Below, one piece after another: positions 1,667 to 47,414 of a stretch of DNA of 64,000 nucleotides. The stretch lies in the NCBI GenBank assembly GCA_964530725.1, contig CAZGYV010000001.1, positions 15,829-79,828 of the forward strand, given 5' to 3'. Position numbers and translations under genes: made by a program. A model generated the notes under the pieces. The model was not told the DNA's origin. It saw nothing but the letters and a program-made list of their open reading frames with translations, and did no database searches. The DNA comes from an uncultured Candidatus Saccharibacteria bacterium (lineage in GTDB: Bacteria > Patescibacteriota > Saccharimonadia > CAILAD01 > CAZGYV01). Numbering within the stretch: the first letter of the stretch is position 1; every line of letters begins with the position of its first letter.

Positions 1667-2517
1667 CCTGTACCTCCTTGTCTTGAGAGACAGCTGTAAG
1701 TTCTCACGATTAAGCGAGTGACAGCTTCTAGCGAACAATCAGTGTTGTCAATGTAGATCTGCAGTTTGGGATTCTCATGGCATTTTCTAGCCAAATCTAC
1801 CGCCATGCGGTTGATATCTTCGGCCCGTGAGGAGCTATGACTTTCTGACCAACGGATGTTTTTCCTATTCTTGCGATCTGCCGGTCTGAGCGGCGCGACC
1901 TCTCGGGTGGCATCGAGCATATCGCGCTCGGCTATTTGAGCGACGATGGCCTGAAACGCGCCGTAGTCATCAACATCTTCACCCGATTCCATCATCCTGC
2001 GACGGGCTCGCTCGCGCGGGTCGGTATCGAGAAAGACGGCTAGCTTGAAGTCCCCGCGGTGCTCCCAGTAGCTGGATCTGCCATCGACGATTGCCACTTC
2101 TCCCCTGTCGCCGCATTGGCGCGCGAGGTGTCTGGTGCTTGCAATAACCCATGCACGCACTTCTGGCAAGCTAGAAACTAGCGAAACGTTTTTCTCGACT
2201 TCTCTACTACGAATGAACCGACTAATATCATCACTTTCGTAGTAAACGGTATCATCTCCTGCATCCATATGGACAAAGCGCCCGTACTCAAGAGCATTTT
2301 CGATAATAGCTCGTTGGGCAGCTATACTATGAGGATGATCAGATGAAGTAAGAAGCCTCTGGGTCGCTCTGCCGCCGAGTGCCGCGTAGGTGATGCCGCG
2401 ATAAAGCGCGCCGGTGTTGATGACCCAGCCATTGAGCTGCTCGGCTACCCGGCGAGCTGTCGTACTGCAGCCCGTGCCGGCCGGCCCGTCGATCACGATC
2501 ATGTTGAGCGCTGTCAT
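1663..2517 (-). CDS. cmk: Cytidylate kinase (CMP kinase), with ~40-aa insertion near C-terminus
   Basis: IVIDGPAGTGCST P-loop, NTGALYRG, IVDGRS...FLDTDPRERARRR and ERD...REVAPLRPA motifs collinear with E. coli Cmk; 284 aa vs ~225 typical. Confidence 0.75.
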   Translation of the reverse strand: MTALNMIVIDGPAGTGCSTTARRVAEQLNGWVINTGALYRGITYAALGGRATQRLLTSSDHPHSIAAQRAIIENALEYGRFVHMDAGDDTVYYESDDISRFIRSREVEKNVSLVSSLPEVRAWVIASTRHLARQCGDRGEVAIVDGRSSYWEHRGDFKLAVFLDTDPRERARRRMMESGEDVDDYGAFQAIVAQIAERDMLDATREVAPLRPADRKNRKNIRWSESHSSSRAEDINRMAVDLARKCHENPKLQIYIDNTDCSLEAVTRLIVRTYSCLSRQGGTG

Positions 2518-2756
2518 TTGTTACCCCAATCTGGAAAAGAACGAAAAACCATCTCCGCTTATAGAGATGGCCTACCTTCCATTATTATATAATTATGTGC
2601 TGATAAGTCAATGGTGAAGTGCCACGTTACGAATCGGCACCTTATCAAGAAGGATCAGCCTCCTACTATCGACTACCAGTGTGGGGTGAAACTAGCGGCA
2701 TAAACGTGCGAGCCCCCGGAGAGACCCGCAGTATTGCAGGTGTCACGGGGGCGTGA

Positions 2757-3116
2757 TTAGCCGACTATGTTGAGGTGGGCTTGGGTGTGTGGGACGCTCT
2801 CGATGGCAACGCCACGCGAGGTGAAGAAATTGTTGAGAGCACGACTGATAGCGGCGTGCAGACGTACCTCGTACAGCTCGCGGCTCTCGGTGAACCAGGC
2901 TAGAATCACCAATTCGATGTCGACTGGCAAACTCTGGCTCTCGAAAATACCGTCGGTCTTGACGGTTCTGCCGGGAAAGAGGTCCTCGCCGAGCTCATCG
3001 TTGAATACCCTGGCGACGATGGCTTCGGCTTCTGAGGCGAATTGCTCGACCGTGAGGTTGAGGTTGGCCAGGGTATCGCGCCCTGCCTGCTTGGTGTAAA
3101 TGACATGGTGCGGCAC
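2757..3116 (-). CDS. Hypothetical protein (119 aa)
   Basis: Long ORF with protein-like composition on minus strand; opposite-strand ORF 2767..3099 is Arg/Ser-rich shadow. No recognisable motif. Confidence 0.4.
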   Translation of the reverse strand: MPHHVIYTKQAGRDTLANLNLTVEQFASEAEAIVARVFNDELGEDLFPGRTVKTDGIFESQSLPVDIELVILAWFTESRELYEVRLHAAISRALNNFFTSRGVAIESVPHTQAHLNIVG

Positions 3117-3249
3117 AGTTGCCCCTTTCAGAGCGGATCTGGTTGTTAAGATGGTCTTATCGACCCCACAGCCTGCAAATTACTTTGTAAACTCTGAGGT
3201 CGACCGGGGTGCTCTATGCGCACCCCGGAGCGATCCTTACTGAATGGAG

Positions 3250-3741
3250 CTAGTTCGCGGTCGTCGGCCAGGGGTCTCCCTCGGTAAGGTGTCTGATGAG
3301 CTTGTCATGCCAGTCGTCACGAACCACGTTGATGAACGTGGTGCCGCCTCCGACGCTCTCGTTGAGGGACTCGTTGCTGGTGCAGATCACCATAATGCAA
3401 TCAAGCCAACTGGCTCCGTAGCGAGCACCGCAGACGTGCTTGGTCAGGACGGAAAATGTATTGCCGTCAAGCTGAACCGACAGGAATGCACCGGTGGCCA
3501 AGTCGGCAGTCGTGGGGTAAATGCCGGCGTGGGGCTGGGAGCGCTCCAAGACGGAGATATCCTCGTCGCTAACATCGAGAGCCTGTTGGTAGGCCTGCGC
3601 GTGGCTGACGAATCGCTGCCACATGCTGGCCTCACGGCTGGTGGTTTCGTCGATGATCGAGCGTACCGCATTTCGAAAGCCCATAGGGCTCCTTTCACTT
3701 GAAGGATCGTCATTCACCGCGGATGCGGCAAATGTGTTCAT
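3250..3741 (-). CDS. Hypothetical protein (163 aa; alternative start at Met20, coordinate 3684)
   Basis: Minus-strand ORF with balanced composition; antisense ORF 3244..3702 is Gly/Val/Ala-rich shadow. No recognisable family. Confidence 0.4.
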   Translation of the reverse strand: MNTFAASAVNDDPSSERSPMGFRNAVRSIIDETTSREASMWQRFVSHAQAYQQALDVSDEDISVLERSQPHAGIYPTTADLATGAFLSVQLDGNTFSVLTKHVCGARYGASWLDCIMVICTSNESLNESVGGGTTFINVVRDDWHDKLIRHLTEGDPWPTTAN

Positions 3742-3869
3742 TGCGCGAACCTGTAGATATTAGCACAACTATTGCTTTTTATCAAGGTTTGTGGTGTGAT
3801 TTCGTTTATTCTTCTTAGGACAATTGGCCGGGAGAAAATGCTCGAGGGCGCTGCTTGTTCCGGCATGAA

Positions 3870-3900
3870 AAAACCCGAGACTTAGACTCGGGTTTTTTCA
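3870..3900. terminator. Orphan bidirectional intrinsic terminator-like hairpin (AAAAAACCCGAG-ACTTAGAC-TCGGGTTTTTT)
   Basis: Perfect 7-bp GC stem flanked by A6 and T6 runs; sits at left edge of the AT-rich islet with no adjacent convergent gene. Confidence 0.5.
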
Positions 3901-4044
3901 TGGTGAACGTGGTTGAATCGAATTGGAACGATATCCTTATGGAGTTCAGGCGACTCCATCACCTTATCAGGGGATTATCTCTGGCATAATCCATTCGCTA
4001 CGGTGATAGAACTAGTTTATGCTTGACACATAATGCTAATGCTT

Positions 4045-4071
4045 TTGTTATAGGCTTCTGAACCCTATAAT
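4045..4071 (+). promoter_or_regulatory. Putative promoter of KAP NTPase gene (TTGTTA-15-TATAAT; additional TTGACA at 4023-4028), near-leaderless
   Basis: TATAAT at 4066-4071 only 10 nt before ATG 4082; upstream TTGTTA/TTGACA -35-like hexamers. Confidence 0.3.
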
Positions 4072-4081
4072 ACAGTGTAAT

Positions 4082-7000
4082 ATGTCTACATTACATAAAA
4101 GAGTATGGGGTAAAATCAAAAGCTACTTTGTAAGGGATGAAGCCGAGAAGCAAACACACCCCCTAAAGTCTCTCAGGCCAGCAAAGAATATTGATGGTCA
4201 CTCCGCTTATGTTGACGACATCGCTGAAGCGGTTGCAAATGATGACATTCTGAATATAGCCCTTACTGGCAGCTACGGTTCTGGTAAAAGTAGTATCCTC
4301 AGAGTCTTCAAGGATTCAACAAAGAAGAATAAAGTAGTCCAAATATCGTTCTCAAGCCTAGGGGCGAATATACAGGGTTATATCAATAAGTCTGAAGATG
4401 ATGAACACGAGAAGCTAAACAATCTCACAAACCTAATCCAAAAAGAGATAGTCAAACAGATACTCTTCAAGGAAAAGTACAAGAATATACCGTATTCAAA
4501 GTACAAGAGAGTCTCCAGCCCACGCTTGCCCCTAGTTTTTCTTAACGCATCATTAATATCTATAGTTCTGTTGGCCGTATCATTCGCAAACGGGTGGCTG
4601 GCTCAATTGTTTAAAGTTGCAGCCATTTCGGATTTCTGGTGGCAGGTAGCACTCTGTGCAGACCTATTCATTATCAGTACCTCGCTTATTGCTATCTTCG
4701 TGCTTACGCTATCTGGCAAAATACGGATAGATAAAATTGGTGCATCTTCAATATCATTATCACTCTCGGGAAGTGCAAGTTATTTTGACGAATACTTAGA
4801 TGAGATTATCTACTTCTTTGAAGCTGGACGATACAACGTGGTTATCTTTGAAGATATTGATAGGTTTGAGAGCCTTTATATTTTCGAGACCCTTCGACAG
4901 CTCAACACCATTCTGAATAACTCAGAGCAGATAAAACAACCCGTGACTTTCATCTACGCAATTAAAGACAGTATTTTCGCCAAAGAAGTTGTTGATGCTA
5001 AGAACGACCACAAAGAGCGAAGTGCAAACAGAACCAAGTTCTTTGACCTCATCATTCCTGTAGTTCCTTTCATTACTAATGTGAACTCACAAGACCACAT
5101 ACTTCAGGTTTTTGATAGCGAGTACCGAGACATCATCAGAGAGCCAGCCTCAGTAGTGGCAAAGCATATTACTGATATGCGTCTTGTGGTTAACATCTAT
5201 AACGAGTTTCTAATATTCAAGGATAAAGTTGTACTCCCCGACTCAGGCTTATCTCTGGATAAGTTATTTGCAGTTGTTGCTTACAAAAACTGGAATCTGG
5301 ATGAGTTTGAAAAAGTTAAAGATGGTGATAGTTCAATCGATAAGGTTATTGCTGCACACAGCAAATATGTTGACGATAGAATACGTACCATTAACTCTGA
5401 GATACGAAGCAAAGAAAGTGCCCTAAAGACTATCAATGCCATTGCTGAACGGTCACAGAGCTTAGGTAAGGTTCTTACCGACTATATAGCCGATGTATTG
5501 CGACAGGTGCAAGGTTCTGCTCAGTCCTATAGCCTTAACAGCACTTCTTATGACTTAGAAGATTTCACAACCGAAGATTTTTGGAGCGATATCATCAAAG
5601 GGGGTGAGACCAGTACTCTTATTGTCACCTATCGAGCATCAACTGGCTACACACAAAACCTTACACTGACGGCAGCCGACATCAGTAGTATTTGTAGCGA
5701 CAGCCTTGATAAAACCCAGTGGGATACAAAAGCAGCAGAAGCTATTGAAGACGAAATAGGAGTACTACGAGCCGAAGCTAATAAACTCCCATACCAAAGT
5801 ATCAAGGAACTCATTCAGGAATCACCAGAGTTTCTCGCTAAATTAAAGGAGCTCGATGGCGGTAAGGTTGTTGCTGACGAGGTAGGATGGCAACTCATTA
5901 AGGCTGGCTATATCGATACCGAATTCGTACACTACACCTCGCTATACTACAGCACCAGCATGAGCCTCAAAGCTCGTAGCTTCTTGCTAAATAATGTCCG
6001 ACTGAACAAACAGTCTTTGCATCACAAGTTTGAAAACGATGATGACATACAAGCACTTCTAGAAAAAATGGGCAGTACCTATCTTAATGATAAGAGCATG
6101 TACAACATCTCAATAGTTGATTACTTGCTCAGGAAGGATGACTCAAGAGTAGATAAGATAATAGCTAACTTGGCAGGCGGTGACGCTGACGACCTTCAAT
6201 TTATCAATGCATATGTGAAGGAGGGTTCTGAAGTAACCAAGTTTATCCAACAGCTTGCTGCACGATGGGATGGAATCTTTACGTATATTACAGGTGATAA
6301 CGAAATGGATGATAAAAAGAAGGGTCGTTTCATTAGCCTTGCATTAACTGCTGGTTCTGAGAGTATCAAGTATAAAACCAATCCATCCGTTAAAGGTTTT
6401 ATTGAGGCCAATAAAACAAACGTCCAGATACTTACAAACGATAACCAAGATAGCTCAGCCGTTGATGATGCTTGCCGATTGCTCATGCAGTTTGGAATTG
6501 AATTCGATACTCTTGATAATCTGAACGAGCAAGCAAAGGAAGCCGTAAAAGATTATGGTCTCTATACGGTCAATGAGCAGAACATGACATCTATCCTTGG
6601 AAGTCCAAGAGTGCCTTTGGATACAATCAAACGCACAAATGAATATGTCTACTCTCACTTGCTAGGGCATCTTGGTGAGTACGCAGACCTATTCCAGAAT
6701 CGAGCAGGCTCAGAATATGCACTTGCAGGCGAAGACGGATTTGAAGCAGTAATTGATGAGGTGTCAAAGATTTCGATGGATGACTTAGGATTAATTCTGG
6801 CTAATGCTGACCTGTCGAACTGTATCGTTCAAGATATTAATAAACTTGGTTCAGACACATGGCCTCTACTGGTTGAGAATGTCATTCTGTCCAACACTCT
6901 AAGTAACGTTCTGACATACTTTGAGCTGTCACATGCCGATGACAAGACAGTAATCAATGACCTGCTGGCTACATACCTTACTGAGGCTGAAACGGTTGTA

Positions 7001-7753
7001 CTTGATAAAGACTTTGCGGAGTATACTGCAGAAAATGTAAAGACCTTTGTTTTGGCCGTAGTAAATAGTTCAAAAATCGATGTGGAGACCACGGTTAATA
7101 TTGTCCATGATTGCTACACCGAAGACTACATTGACATATCAGATATTAAACCCCAAAACGGTAGCCTCTACGGTGCGTTGCTATCAAAGGACTGCATCGA
7201 AGATACGCAGGCGAACTTCGAGGCAATTAGAAACCTTTCTTGGGAAACGAAAAGCTCATACATAGCAAACTCCAAGAAGTTCTTAGAGTACATTGCAGCC
7301 CTCGCTCTCACTACGGACGAGCTAAACTCTATTGCTGAAGACGGCTCAATTCCTGATGCCGTTAACGAGTATATAGTCGATAACATCGTTGCTTATTCTG
7401 CTGAGTTATCTATCATGTCAGCTGCACACTTTGCCGAGTTTGCATTACGTAAGTCGAAGGTACTCAGTGCTGATTCACTTAAGGTTATTCTTGACGGAGC
7501 GGATAAGGAAACTAGCATTAAGCTCATAGGTCTAGCTTTAAATAATCTCGACTTTTCAAATATGCTCACACTCATGCCAGTTGTTGGTGGAGAGTATAAG
7601 AAGCTATCCGAGAAAAACAAACGACCATTATTTGAGAATACCGACTACAACTTAAACCTCATTGCCCGACTTAAAGAACTGGGCTTGGTGAGTAGTTATG
7701 AATTAAAAGATAATGAAACAAAAATAAAAGTAGTTATGAAGTCACGATGGTAG
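4082..7753 (+). CDS. KAP-family / YobI-like P-loop NTPase with transmembrane helices inserted in the NTPase domain (1223 aa)
   Basis: Walker A LTGSYGSGKSSIL at residues ~60-72. Two to four hydrophobic helices (LVFLNASLISIVLLAVSF..., LCADLFIISTSLIAIFVLTL) lie between Walker A and Walker B (VVIFEDIDRF). This matches the KAP NTPase architecture. The long C-terminal alpha-rich region and overall size are similar to B. subtilis YobI (~1200 aa). Confidence 0.65.
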   Translation: MSTLHKRVWGKIKSYFVRDEAEKQTHPLKSLRPAKNIDGHSAYVDDIAEAVANDDILNIALTGSYGSGKSSILRVFKDSTKKNKVVQISFSSLGANIQGYINKSEDDEHEKLNNLTNLIQKEIVKQILFKEKYKNIPYSKYKRVSSPRLPLVFLNASLISIVLLAVSFANGWLAQLFKVAAISDFWWQVALCADLFIISTSLIAIFVLTLSGKIRIDKIGASSISLSLSGSASYFDEYLDEIIYFFEAGRYNVVIFEDIDRFESLYIFETLRQLNTILNNSEQIKQPVTFIYAIKDSIFAKEVVDAKNDHKERSANRTKFFDLIIPVVPFITNVNSQDHILQVFDSEYRDIIREPASVVAKHITDMRLVVNIYNEFLIFKDKVVLPDSGLSLDKLFAVVAYKNWNLDEFEKVKDGDSSIDKVIAAHSKYVDDRIRTINSEIRSKESALKTINAIAERSQSLGKVLTDYIADVLRQVQGSAQSYSLNSTSYDLEDFTTEDFWSDIIKGGETSTLIVTYRASTGYTQNLTLTAADISSICSDSLDKTQWDTKAAEAIEDEIGVLRAEANKLPYQSIKELIQESPEFLAKLKELDGGKVVADEVGWQLIKAGYIDTEFVHYTSLYYSTSMSLKARSFLLNNVRLNKQSLHHKFENDDDIQALLEKMGSTYLNDKSMYNISIVDYLLRKDDSRVDKIIANLAGGDADDLQFINAYVKEGSEVTKFIQQLAARWDGIFTYITGDNEMDDKKKGRFISLALTAGSESIKYKTNPSVKGFIEANKTNVQILTNDNQDSSAVDDACRLLMQFGIEFDTLDNLNEQAKEAVKDYGLYTVNEQNMTSILGSPRVPLDTIKRTNEYVYSHLLGHLGEYADLFQNRAGSEYALAGEDGFEAVIDEVSKISMDDLGLILANADLSNCIVQDINKLGSDTWPLLVENVILSNTLSNVLTYFELSHADDKTVINDLLATYLTEAETVVLDKDFAEYTAENVKTFVLAVVNSSKIDVETTVNIVHDCYTEDYIDISDIKPQNGSLYGALLSKDCIEDTQANFEAIRNLSWETKSSYIANSKKFLEYIAALALTTDELNSIAEDGSIPDAVNEYIVDNIVAYSAELSIMSAAHFAEFALRKSKVLSADSLKVILDGADKETSIKLIGLALNNLDFSNMLTLMPVVGGEYKKLSEKNKRPLFENTDYNLNLIARLKELGLVSSYELKDNETKIKVVMKSRW

Positions 7754-7919
7754 ACGTGGGGTGCGGTAGGGCTCGCCAAGCGTAGCGGCACAAGTCCTGT
7801 TTAGCGGGATACTACTTTATAGCATAAGCATGCCATAAGCAAAAAACGAAAACTCCATACCTCTGCATCTGTAAATTGGCGGATTTCTAGTAGTTTTTGG
7901 CTATGACTAACTATACGTA

Positions 7920-8414
7920 TTAGTAGCTTTTAGGAATAGCCTTACAAACTTCATCAAGAAGCTCATCAGGACTCATGTTGAGGTTTTGGTTTAAGTCTTT
8001 AAACTCCATAGTTATCATCACATAGACCATAGTCTGGAAGTTATTTGGGTGTTCTAGCTTCTCTGCAACTTGGGTTGTATATGCAGTTAGTCGTAATAGT
8101 TCGTCTGGCTTTTTGAATCCAGTTCTTGCAGAGACTGTCATAAGTCGCAACTCTTCCTTACTGGCATTAGGATTCTGGCGTTTATGCATGTCATACATCT
8201 TCTTTTGCGTCTTGGCTATTGAAACAGGACTACCTGCTTTTTTGAATAGTCCACCAATCCACTTGAAGATAGCAACAACCCAAAAGAACAGACCAAACCA
8301 TACAAGGATACCCGCAAACATTGAGGGTAGTAAATGGAATATACTAGGCAGCATTAAAGCTAACCCGATAAGGAACAGTTGATAAGGCTTAATACTTTTT
8401 CTTTGCTTCGACAT
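7920..8414 (-). CDS. Small 2-TM membrane protein with cytoplasmic C-terminal domain (164 aa from Met at 8414)
   Basis: AAGGAG 6 nt upstream of ATG 8414 (MSKQRK...); track start at 8510 lacks RBS. Convergent with KAP NTPase gene. Confidence 0.45.
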   Translation of the reverse strand: MSKQRKSIKPYQLFLIGLALMLPSIFHLLPSMFAGILVWFGLFFWVVAIFKWIGGLFKKAGSPVSIAKTQKKMYDMHKRQNPNASKEELRLMTVSARTGFKKPDELLRLTAYTTQVAEKLEHPNNFQTMVYVMITMEFKDLNQNLNMSPDELLDEVCKAIPKSY

Positions 8415-8455
8415 GTTTTTCTCCTTAAAAATAAAAACGACACCACGCTTGGTGT

Positions 8456-8558
8456 CTAAACCAGTAACAGAGTTTTTAAGCCCGATTACTTCGCATGGTG
8501 CCGTTTTCAAGGCTTAAAACCACGCAAAATTACTTGCGGTACTCTATAACTGGTTTAG
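8456..8558. ncRNA. Structured intergenic element: nested inverted repeats (outer 17-bp IR 8456-8472/8542-8558, 15/17 match; inner perfect 9-bp IR 8474-8482/8511-8519)
   Basis: CTAAACCAGTAACAGAG ... CTCTATAACTGGTTTAG and TTTTAAGCC...GGCTTAAAA read directly from sequence; lies between membrane-protein gene and recombinase promoter. Confidence 0.35.
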
Positions 8559-8856
8559 ACTATTTCATTATATAACAAAAACACCCCCATGTTGCTCAAA
8601 TCACCCCTGAGCCCAAACGATATTTTGCGTTTAAAATCAAAAGTTGATGTTATGCCCATCTCGTAGATAAAAGTGCGTGTTTTGACGGTTTATTTACAGT
8701 ATGTTGGTCGATTATTTTGCTTCCAAAATTAAAAGATGAGCATAAGTCCACCTCACAAATATGAGCGAAAAAAATGAAGCAAGTTCAGCGGTATTTCCGA
8801 CCACTATGGAGTTTTTGGTTATCCACAGACACTTGTCAAAATAAACATAAAAGGTA

Positions 8857-8885
8857 TTGACTTTTTGGGCAAAGTTTGATATAAT
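8857..8885 (+). promoter_or_regulatory. Consensus sigma70-type promoter TTGACT-17 nt-TATAAT directed toward small ORF and serine recombinase
   Basis: TTGACT 8857-8862, 17-nt spacer, TATAAT 8880-8885; ~270 nt upstream of ORF 9155. Confidence 0.5.
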
Positions 8886-9154
8886 ACCAACAGTTAATGA
8901 CGTGGTACACATGTTAAATCTCTTAGCTAAATCATACACAGAACCGACACGGCGTGGTGTTTAGCTAGTTATTTGATAGTCCTATAGTCACTACTCTTGT
9001 TGGAAGCAATAAAGAGAGAGCATCAGAGTTTCGCCTTCGTGAAAATATGCCCATTCTCCTACGTTGTCCTACTAAATAATTAGTAAGATAACAGGCTGAT
9101 TTAGTACGCCCTCGGACGGGTGTTTTTTATATCTGCCAAAGAATAAGGGTTAAC

Positions 9155-9376
9155 ATGCCACGACAAAGAACATGGAGCGGTCAGATGCTCACAATATCAG
9201 ATAAACCTATCATTACCACAGGAGAAGCTCGCAAGATACTAGGCAAGGGTTACGAAGAGCTTTCAGATGAACACCTAATGGGAGTAATTGTTTCACTTTC
9301 TAAGATAGCAGACTATTTCCTGACTAGGATTAGTGTTCCAGAAAACTATAAGGTATGTGGTAAAATGGGGATATGA
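9155..9376 (+). CDS. Small hypothetical protein (73 aa) immediately upstream of, and overlapping, the recombinase (possible accessory/directionality factor - speculative)
   Basis: ATGA overlap with recombinase start (9373-9376); no recognisable motif. Confidence 0.35.
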   Translation: MPRQRTWSGQMLTISDKPIITTGEARKILGKGYEELSDEHLMGVIVSLSKIADYFLTRISVPENYKVCGKMGI

Positions 9377-10971
9377 ATACGATGGATAAAAAAGAGCCAA
9401 TCAAAGTTTATGGTTATAAGCGTGTGTCTACTGAGGAGCAAGTTGATGGGATGTCTTTACATACTCAAGAGCTTGCAATTCAAGCCTACGCAGAGCAGCA
9501 CAATCTTGAGGTGGTGCATATCTTTCATGACGATGGAATATCCGCCAAAACAGCCAAGCGCCCGCAACTTCAAGAGATGCTCGCAAAACTCACAGCCAAA
9601 GATAACGAGGTGCGTGGTGTAGTTGTTTACAATCTCAGTCGTATCTCTCGTGATTTAGAGTCATACAGTCGTGATATAGGCTATCATCTTTCGGCAAAAG
9701 GCGTTCGTCTGTACTCTACAGTTGAAAACATTGACGATACACCAGAGGGTCGTTTGATGCGTAATATTGCACTCTCTATCCACCAGTACGATAACGATAC
9801 AAAAAGTCGAACAGTTAAAGACAATATGAAACAAGTTGCTCTTGAGGGTTGGTGGCAAGGCAATATCCCCTACGGATATAGCCGTGTTAAAGTACCGATT
9901 GGCATTAAGGACAAAGACGGTAAAACTAAGGAGCGTCTCACTCTCGAACCTGATAGCAATAACGACTTGAGCGACAAGATGCGTATGATGCTAGAGCGGT
10001 TCAGTGAGGGTGATTTGAAACAGTCCGAGCTTACTGATTATGCTGAGAGTATCGGCCTATACAGCCCAAAGGGTGAACGTTTTGCACCTCAGTCAATGAA
10101 TAACATTCTAAGAAATATTACCTATGCGGGCTTTGTGTGTAATAAGATGACAGACTTTGAACCTGTAAAGGCTAAACACGTAGGTCTTATCTCGCTTGAG
10201 ACATATTTACGTAATCAGGCTGTTCTTGATGGTCGTAAGCCTGATGAGGCGATGCCTCGCTTTACTGCTAGCTACCCTCTCAAGCACTCTCTGTTATGTA
10301 TTAACTGTCATAAACCCTTAACAGGTAGTGCACCTACTGGAGGTTCTGGTAAGAGCTCACCTCGCTATCACTGCACAAGATGTACGGGTACTGGCTCAAA
10401 AGGTCTTGATAGAACGAATGAGCTATTTGAAGCATTCTTAAACGATGTTACGCCTACAGATAAGATGATTAAGCTCTTTGATGTGATTGTACGCCGTATC
10501 GCCAAAGACAAGCTCTCAAACGTGAATAAGGCTATCAGCGATGTTAGAGACGATATGACCAAGATAGACACTGATATGCAGAAAGCACTTCAGTCTATGC
10601 TCGATGGCGATATCAGTAAGCAAGAGAAAGAAGACTACCAGTCGTCATTACGTATTAAGCGACTCAACCTAGAGGACGAACTTAATAAGCTACGAGACAT
10701 ACAGAGCCTCAATGAGTCTACTATTACCTATGTTTGTAACTTTATGGACGCTCCTGCTCGTATGTGGCAAGATGCAGACGCAGAGACAAAAGTCATCTTC
10801 CAACAGATGGTTACAGAGAACGGTATTGTATTCGACCTCAAGAACGAAAAGTTTGGAACGGACGGTTTGAGTATGTTTTACAGATTGAAAGACAACAAAA
10901 AAGACCCATCAAAGGCTGATGAGTCCCTTATGGTGATCCCACGGGGAATCGAACCCCGGTTACCAGGATGA
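9373..10971 (+). CDS. Large serine recombinase (resolvase/invertase catalytic domain + recombinase domain + zinc ribbon + coiled coil)
   Basis: N-terminal YGYKRVSTEEQ (catalytic Ser), VVVYNLSRISRD, C-terminal Cys cluster CINCH...HCTRCTG, 532 aa. Last ~13 codons are antisense to tRNA-Glu 3' end. Confidence 0.85.
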   Translation: MNTMDKKEPIKVYGYKRVSTEEQVDGMSLHTQELAIQAYAEQHNLEVVHIFHDDGISAKTAKRPQLQEMLAKLTAKDNEVRGVVVYNLSRISRDLESYSRDIGYHLSAKGVRLYSTVENIDDTPEGRLMRNIALSIHQYDNDTKSRTVKDNMKQVALEGWWQGNIPYGYSRVKVPIGIKDKDGKTKERLTLEPDSNNDLSDKMRMMLERFSEGDLKQSELTDYAESIGLYSPKGERFAPQSMNNILRNITYAGFVCNKMTDFEPVKAKHVGLISLETYLRNQAVLDGRKPDEAMPRFTASYPLKHSLLCINCHKPLTGSAPTGGSGKSSPRYHCTRCTGTGSKGLDRTNELFEAFLNDVTPTDKMIKLFDVIVRRIAKDKLSNVNKAISDVRDDMTKIDTDMQKALQSMLDGDISKQEKEDYQSSLRIKRLNLEDELNKLRDIQSLNESTITYVCNFMDAPARMWQDADAETKVIFQQMVTENGIVFDLKNEKFGTDGLSMFYRLKDNKKDPSKADESLMVIPRGIEPRLPG

Positions 10972-11005
10972 GAACCTGGCGTCCTAACCGCTAGACGATG
11001 GGACC
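10931..11005 (-). tRNA. tRNA-Glu (anticodon CUC)
   Basis: GGTCCCATCGTCTAGCGGTTAGGACGCCAGGTTCTCATCCTGGTAACCGGGGTTCGATTCCCCGTGGGATCACCA: 7-bp acceptor, anticodon loop TTCTCAT, T-loop TTCGATT, encoded CCA. Confidence 0.85.
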
Positions 11006-11122
11006 ATTGTCATATTATATACATTATACCATATTTACACTACTTTTTCTAGTCCTAGGGTTCAGGCAGTTTAGGTAATAATATCTCATTGTACTTGTGC
11101 TAAAATAGTATTAAAGAAGTAT

Positions 11123-12358
11123 ATGGCAAACAAAAAACAACTCCCAAAAAGTTTTGATATCTCGGTACGGCGTCGATCGGTTAAAACGACTGATAAGAAT
11201 GACTCGAGCCTAGCCGCCAGTCAGGCTGAAGAGTCCGGCAAGGGCTTGTCGACCACGAAAAGTGATGATGACAAGCTACTCTCCTCGCCTGCTAAAAAAC
11301 GCCTATCGAAAAAAGCCAAAATCATCATAGCTGTCGTGGCCGGCGTATTTGTGGTGGTGGCCATCGTGGCGACTATCTACTTTTTAAATAAGAGTAAGCC
11401 CCAGGCAAGTCGCACTCAGACTGGTGTCAAGGTCTCGCAACCACCGGCCAAGCCACCAACCGCACCCAGCCCCTTGACTGGCGTTGAAGTTGATCCAGCC
11501 GCTGCTAAGCAGCCGGTTGTGGCTGTGGTGGTAGAGAATCTCTACCCTAGCGCTCGTCCGCAATCCGGGCTATCCGATGCTGGCGTGGTTTACGAGGCTC
11601 TAGCTGAGGGCGGCATCACCCGCTATCTGGCCTTGTTTCAAGATCACCTGGCAGCTGATATCGGTCCGGTGCGCTCTTTGCGGACTTATTTTGTCGACTG
11701 GGGCTTGGAGCACAACGCGCCAGTGGCTCATGTTGGCGGCAATGCCGACGCGCTTGATCTCATTAAGCCGCTGGGCATGAAAAACCTCGATCAGTTTCAT
11801 AATGGCAGTTATTTCCGGCGCATAAATACCCGTGCCGCGCCGCATAATGTTTATATCAAAAGCGAGCAGATGAAAAAGCTGCTGAATGATCGCGGCTTTG
11901 GCGGACCGCCAGATTTTAAGCCGTGGCCGCGCAAAGACGACACTAAGTCGCAGAGCTTAACCGCCTCGACTATTGAAGTTAATTTCTCCGGTCCGGACTA
12001 TAAAGCCCGCTTCGACTACGATCCGGCCACCAACAGCTACACTCGCTTTATTCGCAATGCGGCTGATATCGATGCTAACACTAAGGCGCCGATTAAAACT
12101 AAGAACATCATCGCGATGTATATGCCGACGCAATTCGGCGTTACTCGAATCGGCGAGTCGACTGTCGTCATGCAGACGGTCGGCAGCGGCAAGGCGGTGA
12201 TTTTCACAGATGGCGTGGCGACCGAAGCTACCTGGAAAAAAACTGACCACAAGGCACGTACTCAATTTTTAGACGCTAACGGCGCCGAGATCAAGCTCAA
12301 TCGAGGCCAAACCTGGGTGTCGGTGGTACCGGTCGGTAAAAGCGTTAGCTATAAATAA
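11123..12358 (+). CDS. DUF3048 (YerB-like) family membrane-anchored protein
   Basis: N-terminal basic tail + TM helix, Pro-rich linker, then PLTGVEVDP...RPQSGLSDAGVVYEALAEGGITRYLALFQ block typical of DUF3048. Confidence 0.65.
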   Translation: MANKKQLPKSFDISVRRRSVKTTDKNDSSLAASQAEESGKGLSTTKSDDDKLLSSPAKKRLSKKAKIIIAVVAGVFVVVAIVATIYFLNKSKPQASRTQTGVKVSQPPAKPPTAPSPLTGVEVDPAAAKQPVVAVVVENLYPSARPQSGLSDAGVVYEALAEGGITRYLALFQDHLAADIGPVRSLRTYFVDWGLEHNAPVAHVGGNADALDLIKPLGMKNLDQFHNGSYFRRINTRAAPHNVYIKSEQMKKLLNDRGFGGPPDFKPWPRKDDTKSQSLTASTIEVNFSGPDYKARFDYDPATNSYTRFIRNAADIDANTKAPIKTKNIIAMYMPTQFGVTRIGESTVVMQTVGSGKAVIFTDGVATEATWKKTDHKARTQFLDANGAEIKLNRGQTWVSVVPVGKSVSYK

Positions 12359-43399: not shown

Positions 43400-44620
43400 T
43401 TATTTTTTCCAGCTGCGCAGGGCGTCTTTGAGGGCTTTTTTACCTTTCAGGTAAGTGTAGCCAACGTAGCTTAGACCGCTCATGCCCAGTACTCCGGCAC
43501 CGGCACTCTCAATACCAGTTTGTGGTATTTCGCCGCCGCCAGCAATCACTGGTGCGCTTGGCGTTGGGGTGATTACTTCACCAGGTGTTACAGGTGTTGG
43601 GGTTGGTGTAGGTGTAATCGATGGCGTGACTGTTGGAGTTGGAGTCGGGGTAATAGTTGGGGTTGGCGTAGGAGTCACGCTTGGAGTGGTGGTAGGAGTT
43701 GGTGTAGGCGTAACTTTCGGCTTTTTAACCTTGACGATCGCCTTGTCACAACCCTTTTGGTTGTCATTGGCAGTGAAGCAAGCTTCGTTGTCAATGTAGG
43801 TGCCACCTGGTGTGTTACCATCAACGTTGACAGTAATAGTAACGTCTTTGATTTGATTTGGAGCCACATCAGGGTAGTTGAAGTTAATTACCCGAGTGGG
43901 GTCGCCATTGGCGAGCTTCACTTCGGCTGGCAGCGGGTCGGTCATCTTAATACCGGTTAGCGCGCCAGTACCAACGTTGGTCATATAGACAACGTACTTC
44001 AGCTTGTCGCCAGCTTCGACTTCCAAGGCAGTTTCCTTGGTGTCGGCAGCGTAAGCGGTGTTGGCATCTTTACTGAGGTTGATAACACGCTTATAAATCT
44101 GGCCAAAAGGCTTGTTCATCGGCTTGATGGGGTTACCGCAAGACTTGATGATCGCCCAGTGGAAAGTACCACCTTCCATGCTAACAAAAGCTGGCAAGGA
44201 ATTGGAGTTAAACGATACGGCTGGCGGACGCATCCACAGCGAACCGTCTTTGGTCGAGTTCTGCAAGAACTCACGGCCGGAGCTAAAAACTCCAGTACCT
44301 ACTTGAGCACCGTTCACCCAGACAGAGCCGTCTTTGCGAACTTCGCCCTCGACGGTGTTCGGACTCATAATGCCGGCTTCGGTGATACCGCGGCCTTCAT
44401 TGTAATAAATCTGCTTGAGGTTGGCCGATGAATTCGCACCATCGCCACCATTAATTTTACTGATTAATTCTTGCTTATCAGCCGCGCCACATTTCATCAC
44501 AGCATTGCTGTCACAGTCGCGGGCAGCGTCAACTTTAACTAGTGGCAAGACTATCGAAGCCACCAGTAGCAAAGCGCTAACAATACCAATCAATTTGGTA
44601 CTAATTTTGCCTTTCTTCAT
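43400..44620 (-). CDS. Sortase-substrate-like surface protein: signal peptide, globular domain, (Thr-Pro)n stalk, C-terminal IPQTG-TM-KKALKDALRSWKK sorting signal
   Basis: C-terminal IPQTG + hydrophobic helix + basic tail = LPXTG-type cell-wall sorting signal; TPTPTPT repeats. Confidence 0.7.
   Translation of the reverse strand: MKKGKISTKLIGIVSALLLVASIVLPLVKVDAARDCDSNAVMKCGAADKQELISKINGGDGANSSANLKQIYYNEGRGITEAGIMSPNTVEGEVRKDGSVWVNGAQVGTGVFSSGREFLQNSTKDGSLWMRPPAVSFNSNSLPAFVSMEGGTFHWAIIKSCGNPIKPMNKPFGQIYKRVINLSKDANTAYAADTKETALEVEAGDKLKYVVYMTNVGTGALTGIKMTDPLPAEVKLANGDPTRVINFNYPDVAPNQIKDVTITVNVDGNTPGGTYIDNEACFTANDNQKGCDKAIVKVKKPKVTPTPTPTTTPSVTPTPTPTITPTPTPTVTPSITPTPTPTPVTPGEVITPTPSAPVIAGGGEIPQTGIESAGAGVLGMSGLSYVGYTYLKGKKALKDALRSWKK
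43590..43715. repeat. Imperfect tandem DNA repeats (GGTGTTGGGGTTGGTGTAGG-like) encoding the (Thr-Pro)n stalk
   Basis: Visible periodic GGNGTNGG units; coding low-complexity, not CRISPR. Confidence 0.6.
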
Positions 44621-44791
44621 ATATTCTCCTACTCACCCTCGACTTTATTATTTAACGTAACTATTATTCTACAAGACAAAAGCATTTTTGTCAATACTTT
44701 TTTGTTATGTTTAAGGTTTGAGTTTTTACGTATCCGGTTCTATTAACTACTTTTTAATTAATAGAATTAGAGACGTGAAAATGGTTGGGGT

Positions 44792-44840
44792 GGGGACCCC
44801 CTTCTAGTCGTTTTTTGATAAACGCTAGAAGAGGGTCCCC
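44792..44840. terminator. GC-rich 18-bp-stem hairpin without U-tract at left boundary of high-GC block (actinobacterial-style terminator or boundary element)
   Basis: GGGGACCCCCTTCTAGTCG-TTTTTTGATAAA-CGCTAGAAGAGGGTCCCC. Confidence 0.4.
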
Positions 44841-44865
44841 TTGAACTTGTCAGAGGTGGTCTTGG

Positions 44866-45780
44866 CTAGTCGCCAAAACCGCCAATGTTTGTCGAGCCGT
44901 CGATGCCACCGGCCCCATCAGGGGCTTGGCCGGTTTGGCCGTGCCCCGCGTCGGGGTTGCCGGTGGCCTTGGTGCCACCGCCGGCGATTGAGCCACCACC
45001 ACCATTGCCACCACTAGGTGGCGGACTGGTTGGCGGAGGACTCGTCGGGGGCGGTGGGTTGTTCGGTGGAGGCGGTTGAGCGATTGGCGGCTGAGCTACC
45101 GTACCGCCGCCGCCAGCGTTGGCTGGAGGTACCGGTGAGGCTGGGCCAGCCTGAGTGGCTGGATTGCCTTGCGGTGCTGATGCAGGGTCTGCCTGCGGCT
45201 CGCCGGCCGGAGCCGAACCAGTTGCCTGACTCTGTGCCGCGTCCGCCGCCGGCTCGCCTACTACTGACGTAGCGGCTTCCGAGCTGACAGCCGATGGCGC
45301 ATCCTGGACAACAGCTGCCGGAGTCTCGGTGGGAGCCGGTGTGACCACCGTATCTCCTCTCAAGCTCCAGTTAACCACCGCACCAGCTACCAGCAGCGCG
45401 ACTGCCAGCAAACTGACACCCACGCGGCGACGGAACTGAGACCAGTCCCGCCGATCAGTCTCGGGCACCGTCTTGGGACGGGCCTTGACTGGTCGCACCA
45501 GCGTCAGGGGCTTGACCTTGGTCGCTGGCTCTGGGATTTCCGGTAGCAGCGAGACAACGTCTACGATCACGACATCCGAAAGGATGTGCGTGGTCGTCGC
45601 TGGCGGGCTAGCTGACTCGATGACAGCCAGCGCCATACTGGTCGTCGGCGAAGCTTCCTCTTCCTTGGTCGAACCGTAGAGCACCGGCAGCGCTGTGCTG
45701 TCGGGCTTGAGGAACGATTGCAGATCGAAGACCTGCGCTTCCGCTTCCTCGAACTTCGTGGCCGTCAGTGTCTCTGCCAC
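44866..45780 (-). CDS. High-GC-block protein A: N-terminal cytoplasmic region, single TM, Pro/Ala/Gly-rich tail ending GSTNIGGFGD
   Basis: GTG 45780 with AAGGAGG 5 nt upstream, overlapping TAG stop of upstream ORF (TAGTG). TM helix VGVSLLAVALLVAGAVV; PPPTSPPPTSPPPSGGNGGGG. Confidence 0.5.
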   Translation of the reverse strand: MAETLTATKFEEAEAQVFDLQSFLKPDSTALPVLYGSTKEEEASPTTSMALAVIESASPPATTTHILSDVVIVDVVSLLPEIPEPATKVKPLTLVRPVKARPKTVPETDRRDWSQFRRRVGVSLLAVALLVAGAVVNWSLRGDTVVTPAPTETPAAVVQDAPSAVSSEAATSVVGEPAADAAQSQATGSAPAGEPQADPASAPQGNPATQAGPASPVPPANAGGGGTVAQPPIAQPPPPNNPPPPTSPPPTSPPPSGGNGGGGSIAGGGTKATGNPDAGHGQTGQAPDGAGGIDGSTNIGGFGD

Positions 45781-46082: not shown

Positions 46083-46083
46083 C

Positions 46084-46593: not shown

Positions 46594-46779
46594 TGCTTGC
46601 CCTTTCTACTAGACAATATGTTGACAAGTTTCACTGCTTTTAAGGGATTTAAAAGCAGATTCAAGCCGTCAAGCAGTATTATACTCCTATCAAAGAATGA
46701 TTGGGTGACCCCTCCCATCTCAGGTAGTGAGACGAGAGGGGTCACAGTTGGACATGGACATGGGACAAGTTAGGTTTGC

Positions 46780-47400: not shown

Positions 47401-47414
47401 GATTTCCTCCTTAA

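What the first reader, a model, noticed from the sequence alone, without database searches (positions are those of the whole stretch)
4082..7753. 1223-aa KAP/YobI-like P-loop NTPase with membrane helices inside the NTPase domain, on a recombinase-bearing AT-rich islet
Walker A is GSYGSGKSS. Hydrophobic helices are inserted between Walker A and Walker B (IFEDIDRF), followed by a ~900-aa helical C-terminal region. This is the diagnostic KAP-NTPase topology, and the size matches Bacillus YobI-like NTPases. KAP NTPases are enriched in defence islands and mobile elements, but their mechanism is unknown. Here the gene is the sole large cargo of a ~7 kb islet with ~37% GC. The islet ends in a large serine recombinase and a tRNA gene, which is the configuration of an integrative element carrying a single anti-phage or abortive-infection effector. 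In a reduced epibiont genome, retaining a 3.7 kb gene of this kind is notable.
Basis: partly seen in the sequence, partly recalled or inferred. Interest (0 to 1): 0.75.

Follow-up and report, generated by a model that had tools for sequence, protein, structure and literature searches.

The report
Tmn-like phage-defence gene on mobile islet
The 1223-residue protein is a membrane-anchored ATPase of the YobI/Tmn family, a known single-gene anti-phage system, carried as swappable cargo on a 7-kb mobile islet inserted at a tRNA-Glu gene of a Saccharibacteria genome; this is a new host and vehicle for a known defence, not a new kind of system.

Summary
ORF 4082-7753 (+) encodes 1223 aa with Walker A GSYGSGKSS (63-71), two hydrophobic helices (about 146-177 and 187-214) and Walker B VVIFED (253-258).

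It matches Pfam YobI-ATPase end to end (E=7e-101) and the PADLOC Tmn model (E=1e-63). KAP, ABC and AAA models stay below their cut-offs. Eight of the ten residues tested, all of them essential in E. coli Tmn, are conserved. An AlphaFold2 model (pLDDT 84.7) shows the Tmn layout: P-loop core, membrane hairpin, coiled coil with an alpha/beta knob, then about 600 aa of helical repeats. dN/dS against relatives is 0.04-0.08.

The family is large (3,923 clusters at 50% identity). A 2026 preprint gives a mechanism, so "mechanism unknown" is out of date.

The islet is real: about 7.03 kb, GC 0.41 against 0.49, bounded by TGGTGA cores at the CCA end of tRNA-Glu(CUC). Sibling islets with 80-98% identical recombinases carry other genes in the same slot. 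Near-identical Tmn genes sit in other elements of Saccharibacteria-type contigs.

Verdict: a new member of a known kind, of moderate-to-low interest. The more unusual feature is the recombinase, whose reading frame crosses its own attachment site.

The parts
3864..3902 (-). Host terminator hairpin that originally followed tRNA-Glu; it now forms the left host flank of the islet
   Evidence: 19-nt arms, 95% complementary. Analogous hairpins lie just left of the TGGTGA core in L015 and directly after tRNA-Glu in the unoccupied site L003.
3901..3906 (.). attL core TGGTGA (reverse complement of the tRNA CCA end, discriminator and first acceptor bases)
   Evidence: Similarity among four independent islets starts here, and the sequence to the left differs in each.
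3900..3989 (+). Segment 'X': the element-borne half of attP. It resembles tRNA-Glu DNA and is open in the recombinase's reading frame, giving MVNVVESNWNDILMEFRRLHHLIRGLSLA* if joined at the core.
   Evidence: 83-92% identical at the left end of islets in L015, L016 and L022, and at the 3' end of another recombinase gene in L001. Variable sites by codon position are 5/3/14, and both other frames have stops.
4009..4081 (+). Conserved upstream region of the Tmn-like gene, with promoter-like hexamers (TTGACA 4023-4028, TATAAT 4066-4071, the latter 10 nt before the ATG)
   Evidence: 84-88% identical over 63-72 nt upstream of all six related genes. The hexamers were read from the sequence. The consensus scan did not call this as a promoter.
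4082..7753 (+). YobI/Tmn-family transmembrane P-loop NTPase, 1223 aa
   Evidence: Pfam PF20693 E=6.9e-101, profile 1-362 of 363. PADLOC Tmn E=1.2e-63. 25% identity to E. coli Tmn over residues 19-706, E=5e-49. AlphaFold2 pLDDT 84.7. dN/dS 0.04-0.08.
4268..4294 (+). Walker A codons (GSYGSGKSS, residues 63-71)
   Evidence: G63, G66, G68, K69, S70 and S71 are invariant in 40- and 75-sequence alignments.
4517..4723 (+). Two-helix membrane hairpin inserted in the NTPase domain (residues about 146-214)
   Evidence: Hydropathy maxima 2.41 and 2.39. Conserved position in 38 of 40 relatives. Model helices 149-179 and 185-210.
4838..4867 (+). Walker B strand and following motif (VVIFEDIDRF, residues 253-262)
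   Evidence: E257, D258, R261 and F262 are invariant. D258/R261 align with the essential D276/R279 of Tmn-25 (PMC13001434).
7754..7925 (.). Recurrent 'cassette boundary' segment downstream of the cargo slot
   Evidence: 73-81% identical copies lie after the slot in L001, L022 and L015. Related copies lie upstream of the Tmn promoter in L001, L002 and L018. Shared motifs are CGTGGGGTRCGG.AGGG and GAAAACTCCATACCT.
7920..8414 (-). 164-aa protein with two N-terminal hydrophobic helices; element backbone, function unknown
   Evidence: Translation. No Pfam, PHROG or PADLOC match. 89% identical copy at the same backbone position in L022.
9155..9376 (+). 73-aa ORF whose stop overlaps the recombinase start; backbone; candidate regulator or directionality factor (inference)
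   Evidence: Conserved with the recombinase: 90% in L015, 71% in L022, 65% in L016. No family match.
9373..10971 (+). Large serine recombinase, 532 aa; its last 13 codons are encoded by tRNA-Glu antisense DNA (MVIPRGIEPRLPG*)
   Evidence: Pfam Resolvase 2.7e-27 and Recombinase 1.3e-6. PHROG 95 integrase 3.9e-69. Homologues at 98/86/81/80% identity in L015, L016, L017 and L022.
10899..10929 (-). Terminator-like hairpin inside the recombinase's 3' coding sequence, directly downstream of tRNA-Glu; a replacement terminator supplied by the element (inference)
   Evidence: 14-pair stem followed by a T run on the minus strand.
10931..10936 (.). attR core TGGTGA
   Evidence: Recombinase-side similarity runs up to the core. 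Beyond it lies tRNA-Glu in the window, L016, L002 and L022, and other sequence in L015 and L017.
10931..11005 (-). tRNA-Glu(CUC) with encoded CCA; the integration target
   Evidence: ARAGORN. Rfam tRNA 61.7 bits.

Best explanation
The gene encodes a YobI-family, Tmn-type anti-phage protein. It combines sensor and effector in a single polypeptide and is anchored in the membrane by a two-helix hairpin inserted in its P-loop NTPase domain.

By analogy with E. coli Tmn, the long cytosolic C-terminal arms would bind a phage protein made early in infection. These arms are a coiled coil carrying a small alpha/beta domain, followed by about 600 residues of ARM/HEAT-like helical repeats. Binding would switch on ATP hydrolysis in an oligomeric membrane hub. 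The resulting ATP drain and ion export (Mg2+ in E. coli) would arrest the infected cell and stop phage spread.

The gene is the exchangeable cargo of a 7.03-kb islet. A large serine recombinase inserted the islet at the CCA end of tRNA-Glu(CUC) in a Saccharibacteria chromosome.

Shown here:
- family membership and motif conservation
- membrane topology, at the level of hydropathy and the model
- predicted architecture
- purifying selection
- islet boundaries and cargo exchange

Inferred:
- anti-phage activity in this organism
- the trigger, the oligomeric state and the ion exported
For: Family assignment:
- Pfam YobI-ATPase 338.8 bits against a cut-off of 27, covering the full profile.
- PADLOC Tmn E=1.2e-63 is the only strong defence-model hit. 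The same model scores the E. coli F-plasmid 'anti-phage transmembrane ATPase' at 2057 bits.
- BLASTP to that E. coli Tmn gives E=5e-49 over residues 19-706.
- The window protein keeps the counterparts of Tmn-25 residues whose mutation abolishes defence: G68/K69, Y244, D258/R261, N279, K319/F320, R367 and the F506 equivalent (PMC13001434 section 6). Most are invariant across 40-75 relatives.

Topology and architecture:
- The membrane hairpin between Walker A and B is conserved in 38 of 40 relatives.
- The AlphaFold2 model (pLDDT 84.7) shows a P-loop core, helices 149-210, a coiled coil at 418-475 and 544-571 around an alpha/beta insert at 479-530, and an all-helical region from 600 to 1200.

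Functional state and context:
- dN/dS is 0.04-0.08 in every region.
- No conserved neighbouring gene across six loci.
- The contexts are mobile or defence-rich: an MmeI-type restriction-modification enzyme, Mrr, a Gabija-like OLD-TOPRIM + UvrD pair, and type IV secretion genes.

Islet:
- GC 0.41 against 0.49.
- X/attL and attR cores are defined by four to five sibling elements.
- The same backbone carries different cargo in L015, L016 and L022.
- An unoccupied tRNA-Glu next to DUF3048 is seen in L003.
Against: - No experiment exists in any Saccharibacterium.
- Similarity to the experimentally studied E. coli Tmn is 25% and is confined to the N-terminal roughly 700 residues. The PADLOC model is matched only over positions 17-720 of 1273.
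- The proximal-arm residues Y541/R544, essential in Tmn-25, are not conserved in the pairwise alignment.
- The Mg2+-export and plasmolysis mechanism rests on one preprint with an 11.6 A map. It may not transfer to an ultrasmall cell with a different envelope.
- No relative was found on viral contigs, and no trigger can be proposed.
- No same-species empty site or excised circle was recovered, so mobility is inferred from comparison only.
Confidence: 0.8

Rival explanations
1. The protein belongs to the same family and has the same anti-phage role, but its output differs from E. coli Tmn. For example, it could disrupt the membrane as an abortive-infection effector, deplete ATP only, or export a different ion, in response to an unrelated trigger.
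For: The C-terminal 500 residues have no detectable sequence similarity to E. coli Tmn. Y541/R544 are not conserved. The authors themselves suggest that homologues may use other triggers or ions (PMC13001434, Discussion).
Against: The catalytic core, the hairpin and the predicted arm architecture are all conserved. Nothing in the sequence points to a separate effector domain such as a nuclease, protease or pore.
Confidence: 0.3
2. The gene serves the mobile element rather than the cell. It would exclude competing plasmids, conjugative elements or sibling islets, or act as an addiction module (PifA-like behaviour).
For: Close homologues lie beside type IV secretion and conjugation genes and within tandem arrays of competing elements. 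The KAP relative PifA is plasmid-borne (PMC13001434, Introduction).
Against: All experimental data for the family concern phage (PMC13001434, PMC11846954). There is no antitoxin-like partner and no conserved neighbour.
Confidence: 0.1
3. It is a housekeeping membrane NTPase or transporter of the host, such as a Mg2+ exporter or a secretion ATPase.
For: It is membrane-anchored and under strong purifying selection.
Against: - It lies on a low-GC islet bounded by att sites.
- It is absent from sibling islets and from the related unoccupied site.
- ABC and AAA models score below their cut-offs.
- No NCBIfam housekeeping model matches.
Confidence: 0.03
4. It is a non-functional passenger, a decaying remnant.
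For: None beyond its residence on a mobile element.
Against: The 3.7-kb ORF is intact, all catalytic residues are present, and dN/dS is 0.04-0.08 against four relatives.
Confidence: 0.02

Closest known systems
Tmn anti-phage system of E. coli (PADLOC PDLC02220; e.g. WP_064055658.1 on IncF plasmids; Tmn-25 in PMC13001434)
   Same: - Single-gene system of about 1,220-1,270 aa.
- YobI-type P-loop domain with two membrane helices between Walker A and B.
- The essential NTPase residues are conserved.
- Coiled-coil proximal arm with an alpha/beta knob, and a helical-repeat distal arm.
- Carried on mobile DNA with no fixed partner gene.
   Different: - Only 25% identity, confined to the first roughly 700 residues.
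- The C-terminal sensor region is unrelated in sequence.
- The host is a Saccharibacterium rather than Enterobacteriaceae. The survey in the preprint lists Pseudomonadota, Bacillota, Bacteroidota and one archaeon.
- The vehicle is a serine-recombinase islet at a tRNA gene rather than an F-type plasmid.
- The trigger and the exported ion are unknown.
YobI family (Pfam PF20693, named after Bacillus subtilis YobI)
   Same: End-to-end domain match. About 30% identity along the whole length, in the same order, to hundreds of family members annotated 'YobI family P-loop NTPase' in Actinomycetota and Pseudomonadota.
   Different: It belongs to a sub-clade (>=44% identity, P0001-P0018) seen only in metagenome or Saccharibacteria-type contigs. 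NCBI annotates the member found there as a hypothetical protein.
KAP P-loop NTPases (Pfam PF07693; PifA, Kidins220, E. faecalis EF_KAP in PMC13552941)
   Same: Distantly related P-loop domain with membrane helices associated with the NTPase. Fused to long regions without known domains. Now shown to be anti-phage.
   Different: The Pfam KAP model is matched only below its cut-off (17.5 against 20 bits). The length and arm architecture are those of YobI/Tmn.
STAND/Avs and AAA+ initiator-type NTPases (Cdc6/ORC, TnsC, NLRs, NSF D2)
   Different: They have no membrane hairpin in the NTPase domain. Tmn lacks a separate effector domain. There is no sequence-level match to any PDB chain.
Genomic islands integrated at tRNA genes (Islander/TIGER class) and large-serine-recombinase elements
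   Same: Insertion at the 3' end of a tRNA gene with the gene left intact. Recombinase at one end, low-GC cargo, tandem accretion.
   Different: Islands at tRNA genes are usually attributed to tyrosine integrases (PMC4383910), whereas the enzyme here is a large serine recombinase. Its ORF runs across the crossover site, so integration swaps its C-terminal tail.

Membership tests
YobI-family P-loop NTPase (Pfam PF20693) | Match to the family profile above the curated cut-off, over the whole domain | tested here: met
   338.8 bits against a cut-off of 27; residues 43-419 cover profile positions 1-362 of 363.
YobI-family P-loop NTPase (Pfam PF20693) | [quoted passage not shown] | tested here: met
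   GSYGSGKSS at 63-71 and VVIFED at 253-258. G63, G66, G68, K69, S70, S71, E257 and D258 are invariant in 40- and 75-sequence alignments.
YobI-family P-loop NTPase (Pfam PF20693) | Two transmembrane helices inserted inside the P-loop domain, between Walker A and B | tested here: met
   Hydropathy segments 146-177 and 187-214. Same position in 38 of 40 relatives. Model helices 149-179 and 185-210. No dedicated transmembrane predictor was available.
YobI-family P-loop NTPase (Pfam PF20693) | About 1,200 aa, with a long helical C-terminal region aligning in the same order as other members | tested here: met
   Full-length alignments (96-100% coverage) to more than 100 proteins of 1,175-1,350 aa. 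2,077 cluster representatives at E<=1e-30, most matched over query residues about 27-1200.
Tmn anti-phage defence system | Significant match to the PADLOC Tmn model | tested here: inconclusive
   E=1.2e-63, but only profile positions 17-720 of 1273 are covered. E. coli Tmn covers 1-1273 at 2057 bits. I do not know whether PADLOC's own coverage rule would call it.
Tmn anti-phage defence system | NTPase-domain residues whose mutation abolishes defence in Tmn-25 (G66/K67, Y262, D276/R279, N297, K325/F326, R374) | tested here: met
   Counterparts are G68/K69, Y244, D258/R261, N279, K319/F320 and R367 in the pairwise alignment. All are invariant or nearly so in the family. Residue list from PMC13001434 section 6.
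Tmn anti-phage defence system | Essential proximal-arm residues (F506, Y541/R544) | tested here: inconclusive
   F506 aligns with a Phe. Y541/R544 align with L527/T530 in a low-identity stretch that may be misaligned.
Tmn anti-phage defence system | Proximal coiled coil with an alpha/beta domain, and a distal alpha-solenoid arm | tested here: met
   AlphaFold2 secondary structure: helices 418-449/453-475 and 544-571 around strands 479-530, then helices only from 600 to 1200, pLDDT about 90. Weak Foldseek hits to plakoglobin, beta-catenin, importin and PP2A repeats. Repeat counts were not compared.
Tmn anti-phage defence system | Self-contained single gene without a conserved operon partner | tested here: met
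   The downstream and upstream genes differ in the window, L001, L002, L018, L020 and L021.
Tmn anti-phage defence system | Protects cells against phage; decameric membrane complex; trigger-stimulated ATP turnover, Mg2+ export, plasmolysis | not testable with these tools
   Experimental properties reported for E. coli Tmn only (PMC13001434).
KAP P-loop NTPase (Pfam PF07693) | Match to the family profile above the curated cut-off | tested here: not met
   17.5 bits against a cut-off of 20, E=0.0026. Related, but not a member by this criterion.
   All are below cut-off and limited to the P-loop. No NCBIfam hit.
Integrative element mobilised by a large serine recombinase | Recombinase with Resolvase and Recombinase domains at one end | tested here: met
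   Pfam 2.7e-27 and 1.3e-6. PHROG 95 'integrase' 3.9e-69.
Integrative element mobilised by a large serine recombinase | Defined ends shared by independent copies in different flanking contexts | tested here: met
   X at the left end and the recombinase at the right end in the window, L015, L016 and L022. Sequence outside the TGGTGA cores is unrelated.
Integrative element mobilised by a large serine recombinase | Unoccupied target site in a close relative; excised circular form | tested here: inconclusive
   Only a distant relative (DUF3048 69% identical) shows the order terminator, tRNA-Glu, DUF3048 without an element. No same-species empty site was found in genome or metagenome scans. No circular form was found.

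The most novel reading that the evidence does not exclude
The vehicle, not the cargo, may be the new thing. It appears to be a family of large serine recombinases in Saccharibacteria-type genomes that target the CCA end of tRNA genes and whose own reading frame crosses the crossover point.

Integration would replace a conserved tail of about 29 residues, encoded by the element's far end (X), with a short peptide encoded by antisense tRNA DNA. This would give the enzyme a built-in marker of integrated versus excised state that could control directionality.

These elements form small islets with a promoter-equipped slot next to attL, in which defence genes such as this Tmn homologue are exchanged. 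X acts as a secondary landing site, so that tandem arrays build up.
Probability: 0.3. Interest if true: 0.6.

Novelty: new member of a known kind. Interest (0 to 1): 0.35.

Why it matters
The result extends the Tmn/YobI defence family to Saccharibacteria. Their cells are tiny, they depend on a host bacterium, and their phages and immune repertoire are little known. The published Tmn survey does not list this phylum, and NCBI calls the protein found there hypothetical, so annotation pipelines may be missing it.

If the E. coli mechanism (ATP drain, Mg2+ export, plasmolysis) operates here, it would be acting in a cell with very little energetic reserve. That would make this clade a useful test of how general the mechanism is. 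Its distinct sensor arms could also help identify proteins of Saccharibacteria phages.

The islet gives a concrete, bounded example of how such genomes acquire and swap defence genes.

Tried and rejected
Searches that found nothing:
- Exact-sequence lookup of the protein in the contig index found nothing.
- Viral contigs hold no relative of the protein and no copy of X.
- NCBIfam and PHROGs give no match for the NTPase.
- A profile search of PDB sequences gave no hit.
- Foldseek against PDB gave nothing at E<=1e-3.
- The afdb50 library was unavailable.

Search for a same-species empty site:
- I used the flanking DUF3048 gene in genome contigs and metagenome contigs. Only relatives of 72% identity or less were found, so the unoccupied site is shown only in a distant relative.

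Other negative results:
- Rfam on 3700-11200 found only the tRNA.
- PADLOC on the cargo of sibling islets gave no known defence model except an HNH/REase-like hit in L015.

Ideas I dropped:
- I first read X as a decayed displaced tRNA fragment. I rejected this because X travels with the element into different flanks and is constrained as coding sequence.
- I first took the 164-aa membrane protein to be a partner or second cargo of the NTPase. I rejected this because it stays with the backbone in L022, where the slot holds other genes.
- I first took the L001 recombinase to be the same as the window's. It is only 21% identical. A second, window-type recombinase lies further along the same contig.

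Full report
**1. The observation.**
Window 4082-7753 (+) is a single open reading frame of 1223 codons with an ATG start. The protein carries Walker A GSYGSGKSS at residues 63-71. Two strongly hydrophobic stretches lie at 146-177 and 187-214 (Kyte-Doolittle 19-residue maxima 2.41 and 2.39). A Walker B strand, VVIFEDIDRF, lies at 253-262. No other stretch reaches the hydropathy threshold. The description is therefore accurate.

The surrounding 7 kb is AT-richer than the rest of the window: GC is 0.41 for 3907-10929 against 0.493 elsewhere, not the 37% stated. The region ends in a 532-aa large serine recombinase at 9373-10971 (Resolvase and Recombinase domains; PHROG 95 integrase). The recombinase's last 41 nt overlap tRNA-Glu(CUC) at 10931-11005 on the minus strand.

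**2. What the protein is.**
- Pfam gives an end-to-end match to YobI-ATPase (PF20693): E=6.9e-101, 338.8 bits against a cut-off of 27, profile positions 1-362 of 363.
- KAP_NTPase, ABC_tran, AAA_16 and AAA_22 all stay below their cut-offs. NCBIfam has no model for it.
- In PADLOC the only strong hit is Tmn: E=1.2e-63, residues 19-696 on profile positions 17-720 of 1273.
- tblastn against plasmids finds 634 records, 463 of them from Escherichia. They include IncF plasmids whose gene is annotated 'anti-phage transmembrane ATPase'. That E. coli protein fills the PADLOC Tmn model completely at 2057 bits. It aligns with the window protein at 25% identity over residues 19-706, E=5e-49.
- The numbering of that E. 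coli protein matches the Tmn-25 numbering in Wu et al. (bioRxiv 2026, PMC13001434). The residues whose mutation abolished defence there have these counterparts here: G66/K67 = G68/K69, Y262 = Y244, D276/R279 = D258/R261, N297 = N279, K325/F326 = K319/F320, R374 = R367, and F506 = a Phe near 495. Y541/R544 are not matched in the pairwise alignment.
- Most of these residues are invariant across 40 and 75 aligned relatives.
- The two hydrophobic helices lie between Walker A and B in 38 of 40 relatives, including E. coli Tmn.

**3. Predicted structure.**
An AlphaFold2 model of residues 1-1200, built from a 75-sequence alignment, has mean pLDDT 84.7 and pTM 0.54. Its elements are:
- a five-stranded P-loop core (strands 58-62, 85-89, 253-257, 289-294, 323-326);
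- helices 149-169/172-179 and 185-210, inserted between the second and third strands;
- two long helices (418-449, 453-475) and a return helix (544-571) around a small alpha/beta insert (479-530);
- only helices from about 600 to 1200, with pLDDT about 90.

This is the layout described for Tmn: NTPase hub, membrane hairpin, coiled-coil 'proximal arm' with a variable alpha/beta domain, and alpha-solenoid 'distal arm'.

**4. Family size and state of the gene.**
The word-indexed search returned 2,683 relatives. The top 120 are all full-length proteins of about 1,175-1,350 aa. Some are named 'YobI family P-loop NTPase' in Leifsonia, Arthrobacter, Mycobacteroides, Pseudomonas and Pantoea. The exhaustive search of 50%-identity representatives found 3,923 at E<=1e-3 and 2,077 at E<=1e-30. 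The family is therefore large and widespread.

The nearest relatives (95-44% identity, P0001-P0018) come only from metagenome assemblies. The 90% cluster of P0001 contains MBL8121527.1, a 'hypothetical protein' of Candidatus Saccharibacteria.

Against four of these relatives, dN/dS is 0.04-0.08 overall and in the NTPase, proximal-arm and distal-arm segments; it is 0.07-0.22 in the short membrane-hairpin segment. The gene is under purifying selection and is not a remnant.

**5. The host.**
The DUF3048 gene next to the tRNA is 69% identical to one in a Candidatus Saccharimonadia genome assembled from a metagenome. Weaker matches are also to Patescibacteria. A recombinase homologue at 64% identity is annotated from Candidatus Saccharimonadota on an 859-kb contig. 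The 'reduced epibiont' context is consistent with these data.

**6. The islet and its ends.**
Recombinase homologues at 98, 86, 81 and 80% identity were traced to contigs L015, L016, L017 and L022. In L015, L016 and L022 the element's far end is marked by a 90-nt segment, here called X (window 3900-3989). X is 83-92% identical among copies, while everything to its left differs. The left flank is a terminator hairpin in the window and L015, and pyruvate kinase in L016.

On the other side, recombinase-coding similarity runs up to the same heptamer, (A/T)TGGTGA. Beyond it lies tRNA-Glu in the window, L016, L002 and L022. TGGTGA is the reverse complement of the tRNA's CCA, discriminator and first acceptor bases. 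The islet therefore spans 3907-10936 (7,030 bp), between cores at 3901-3906 and 10931-10936.

In L003, the closest genome with a DUF3048 homologue, tRNA-Glu is followed directly by a terminator hairpin and a histidine kinase/response regulator pair, with no recombinase. That is the architecture expected for the unoccupied site. I found no same-species empty site or excised circle. Mobility is therefore inferred from comparison and was not observed.

**7. Cargo exchange.**
L022 is the same contig as L001, read further to the right. Its tRNA-Glu site carries an element with the window's backbone:
- X;
- the segment matching window 7751-7922;
- the 164-aa two-helix membrane protein (89% identical);
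- the 73-aa ORF (71%);
- the recombinase (80%).

However, the slot next to X holds 269-aa and 137-aa genes plus a 553-aa gene. L015 has a 155-aa gene in the slot and L016 has 419-aa and 148-aa genes.

The Tmn-like gene with its 63-72-nt upstream region (84-88% identical in six loci) also occurs in other settings:
- L001: an element driven by a recombinase only 21% identical, together with an MmeI-type restriction-modification enzyme and MauJ.
- L002 and L018: beside split recombinases at tRNA-Glu.
- L020: next to Mrr, a KAP-like NTPase and a Gabija-like OLD-TOPRIM/UvrD pair.
- L021: next to type IV secretion genes.

No neighbouring gene is conserved with it. It therefore behaves as a self-contained, horizontally exchanged cassette, as described for Tmn.

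**8. How it most likely works.**
Shown here: family membership, an intact catalytic core, the membrane hairpin (hydropathy, conservation and model), the arm architecture (model), selection, and the mobile context.

Inferred from E. coli Tmn (PMC13001434): the cytosolic arms bind an early phage protein (RIIB for Tmn-25). Productive binding stimulates ATP turnover in a decameric membrane hub. Mg2+ is exported and the cytoplasm collapses (plasmolysis) without depolarisation. [quoted passage not shown]

I put about 0.8 on 'Tmn-type anti-phage gene carried as islet cargo'. I put roughly half that on the specific Mg2+/plasmolysis output in this organism, for three reasons. The sensor half is unrelated in sequence to the studied protein. 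The envelope and cell size differ. The mechanism rests on a single preprint.

**9. Comparison and novelty.**
[quoted passage not shown] It matches Tmn in all features that can be tested by computation, with two exceptions: coverage of the PADLOC model and two proximal-arm residues. It is not a KAP protein by Pfam's cut-off.

No paper in the searchable library links Tmn with Saccharibacteria. The preprint's survey lists Pseudomonadota, Bacillota, Bacteroidota and one archaeon. This is a new member of a known kind, in a new host lineage and on a new vehicle.

**10. Side finding.**
The recombinase's ORF crosses the att core. In the integrated state it ends in tRNA antisense sequence (MVIPRGIEPRLPG*). 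Joined to X, as it would be in an excised circle, it would end in MVNVVESNWNDILMEFRRLHHLIRGLSLA*.

X keeps this frame open in four loci, has 5/3/14 variable sites by codon position, and has stops in both other frames. Across the recombinase family, most C-termini are antisense translations of tRNA 3' halves (…GIEP.LPG, …GFEPA…, …GVEPALSG). A few carry X-type tails: P0127, P0158 and P0197.

In L001/L022 a distantly related recombinase has inserted at X itself, producing a tandem array. I did not test whether the tail swap has a function. It is the most novel reading that the data allow.

Noticed in passing
window 3900-3989 and 10930-10971: The serine recombinase ORF runs across the attachment core. 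When integrated, it ends in 13 codons of antisense tRNA-Glu. Joined to segment X, as in an excised circle, it would gain a conserved 29-residue tail. X shows a coding-type substitution pattern (5/3/14 by codon position) in four loci.
   Followed up: partly
proteins P0121-P0221 (homologues of window 9373-10971): Most members of this recombinase family end in peptides that are antisense translations of tRNA 3' halves (GIEP.LPG, GFEPA.., GVEPALSG; some read through a whole tRNA). This implies a family-wide preference for the CCA end of several tRNA genes, which is unusual for serine recombinases.
   Followed up: partly
window 10899-10929 (-): A terminator-like hairpin with a T run lies inside the recombinase's 3' coding sequence, directly downstream of tRNA-Glu. 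It seems to replace the host terminator (3864-3902) that the insertion moved 7 kb away.
   Followed up: no
window 7754-7925; L001 13712-13885 and 9800-9975; L022 6656-6835; L015 4583-4700; L002 and L018 upstream of the Tmn gene: A recurrent segment of about 110-170 nt (motifs CGTGGGGTRCGG.AGGG and GAAAACTCCATACCT) flanks the cargo slot and, in L001, both sides of the Tmn cassette. It could be a terminator, a structured RNA or a recombination hot spot. There is no Rfam match.
   Followed up: partly
window 8415-8588; L002 15618-15785; L018 15505-15611: The intergenic region upstream of the 164-aa gene is conserved (88% with L002). In L002 and L018 it precedes unrelated small genes, suggesting a second slot that carries its own promoter. 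It contains a 20-nt inverted repeat (8454-8473 / 8541-8560).
   Followed up: no
L001 19784-21403 with L022 3728-11631: A tandem array at one tRNA-Glu. An element with a recombinase only 21% identical has inserted into X of a window-type element, so X serves as a secondary landing site. That element carries the Tmn homologue, MauJ and an MmeI-type restriction-modification enzyme.
   Followed up: yes
L020 21409-23663: A Gabija-like pair (UvrD helicase plus AAA_15/OLD-TOPRIM protein) and a 414-aa KAP-like NTPase lie within 10 kb of an 86%-identical Tmn homologue. Tmn is reported to synergise with Gabija in E. coli.
   Followed up: no
window 4066-4081: A perfect TATAAT lies only 10 nt before the ATG of the Tmn-like gene, with no Shine-Dalgarno sequence in between. 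This suggests a leaderless or near-leaderless transcript.
   Followed up: no
window 2500-3900: The left flank has GC 0.53-0.57, above the window mean of 0.48. Its ORFs (2757-3116 and 3250-3741, both minus strand) have no Pfam or PHROG match. It may be another foreign segment.
   Followed up: no
window 44000-50000: A stretch with GC 0.55-0.59, the highest in the window. Its content was not examined.
   Followed up: no
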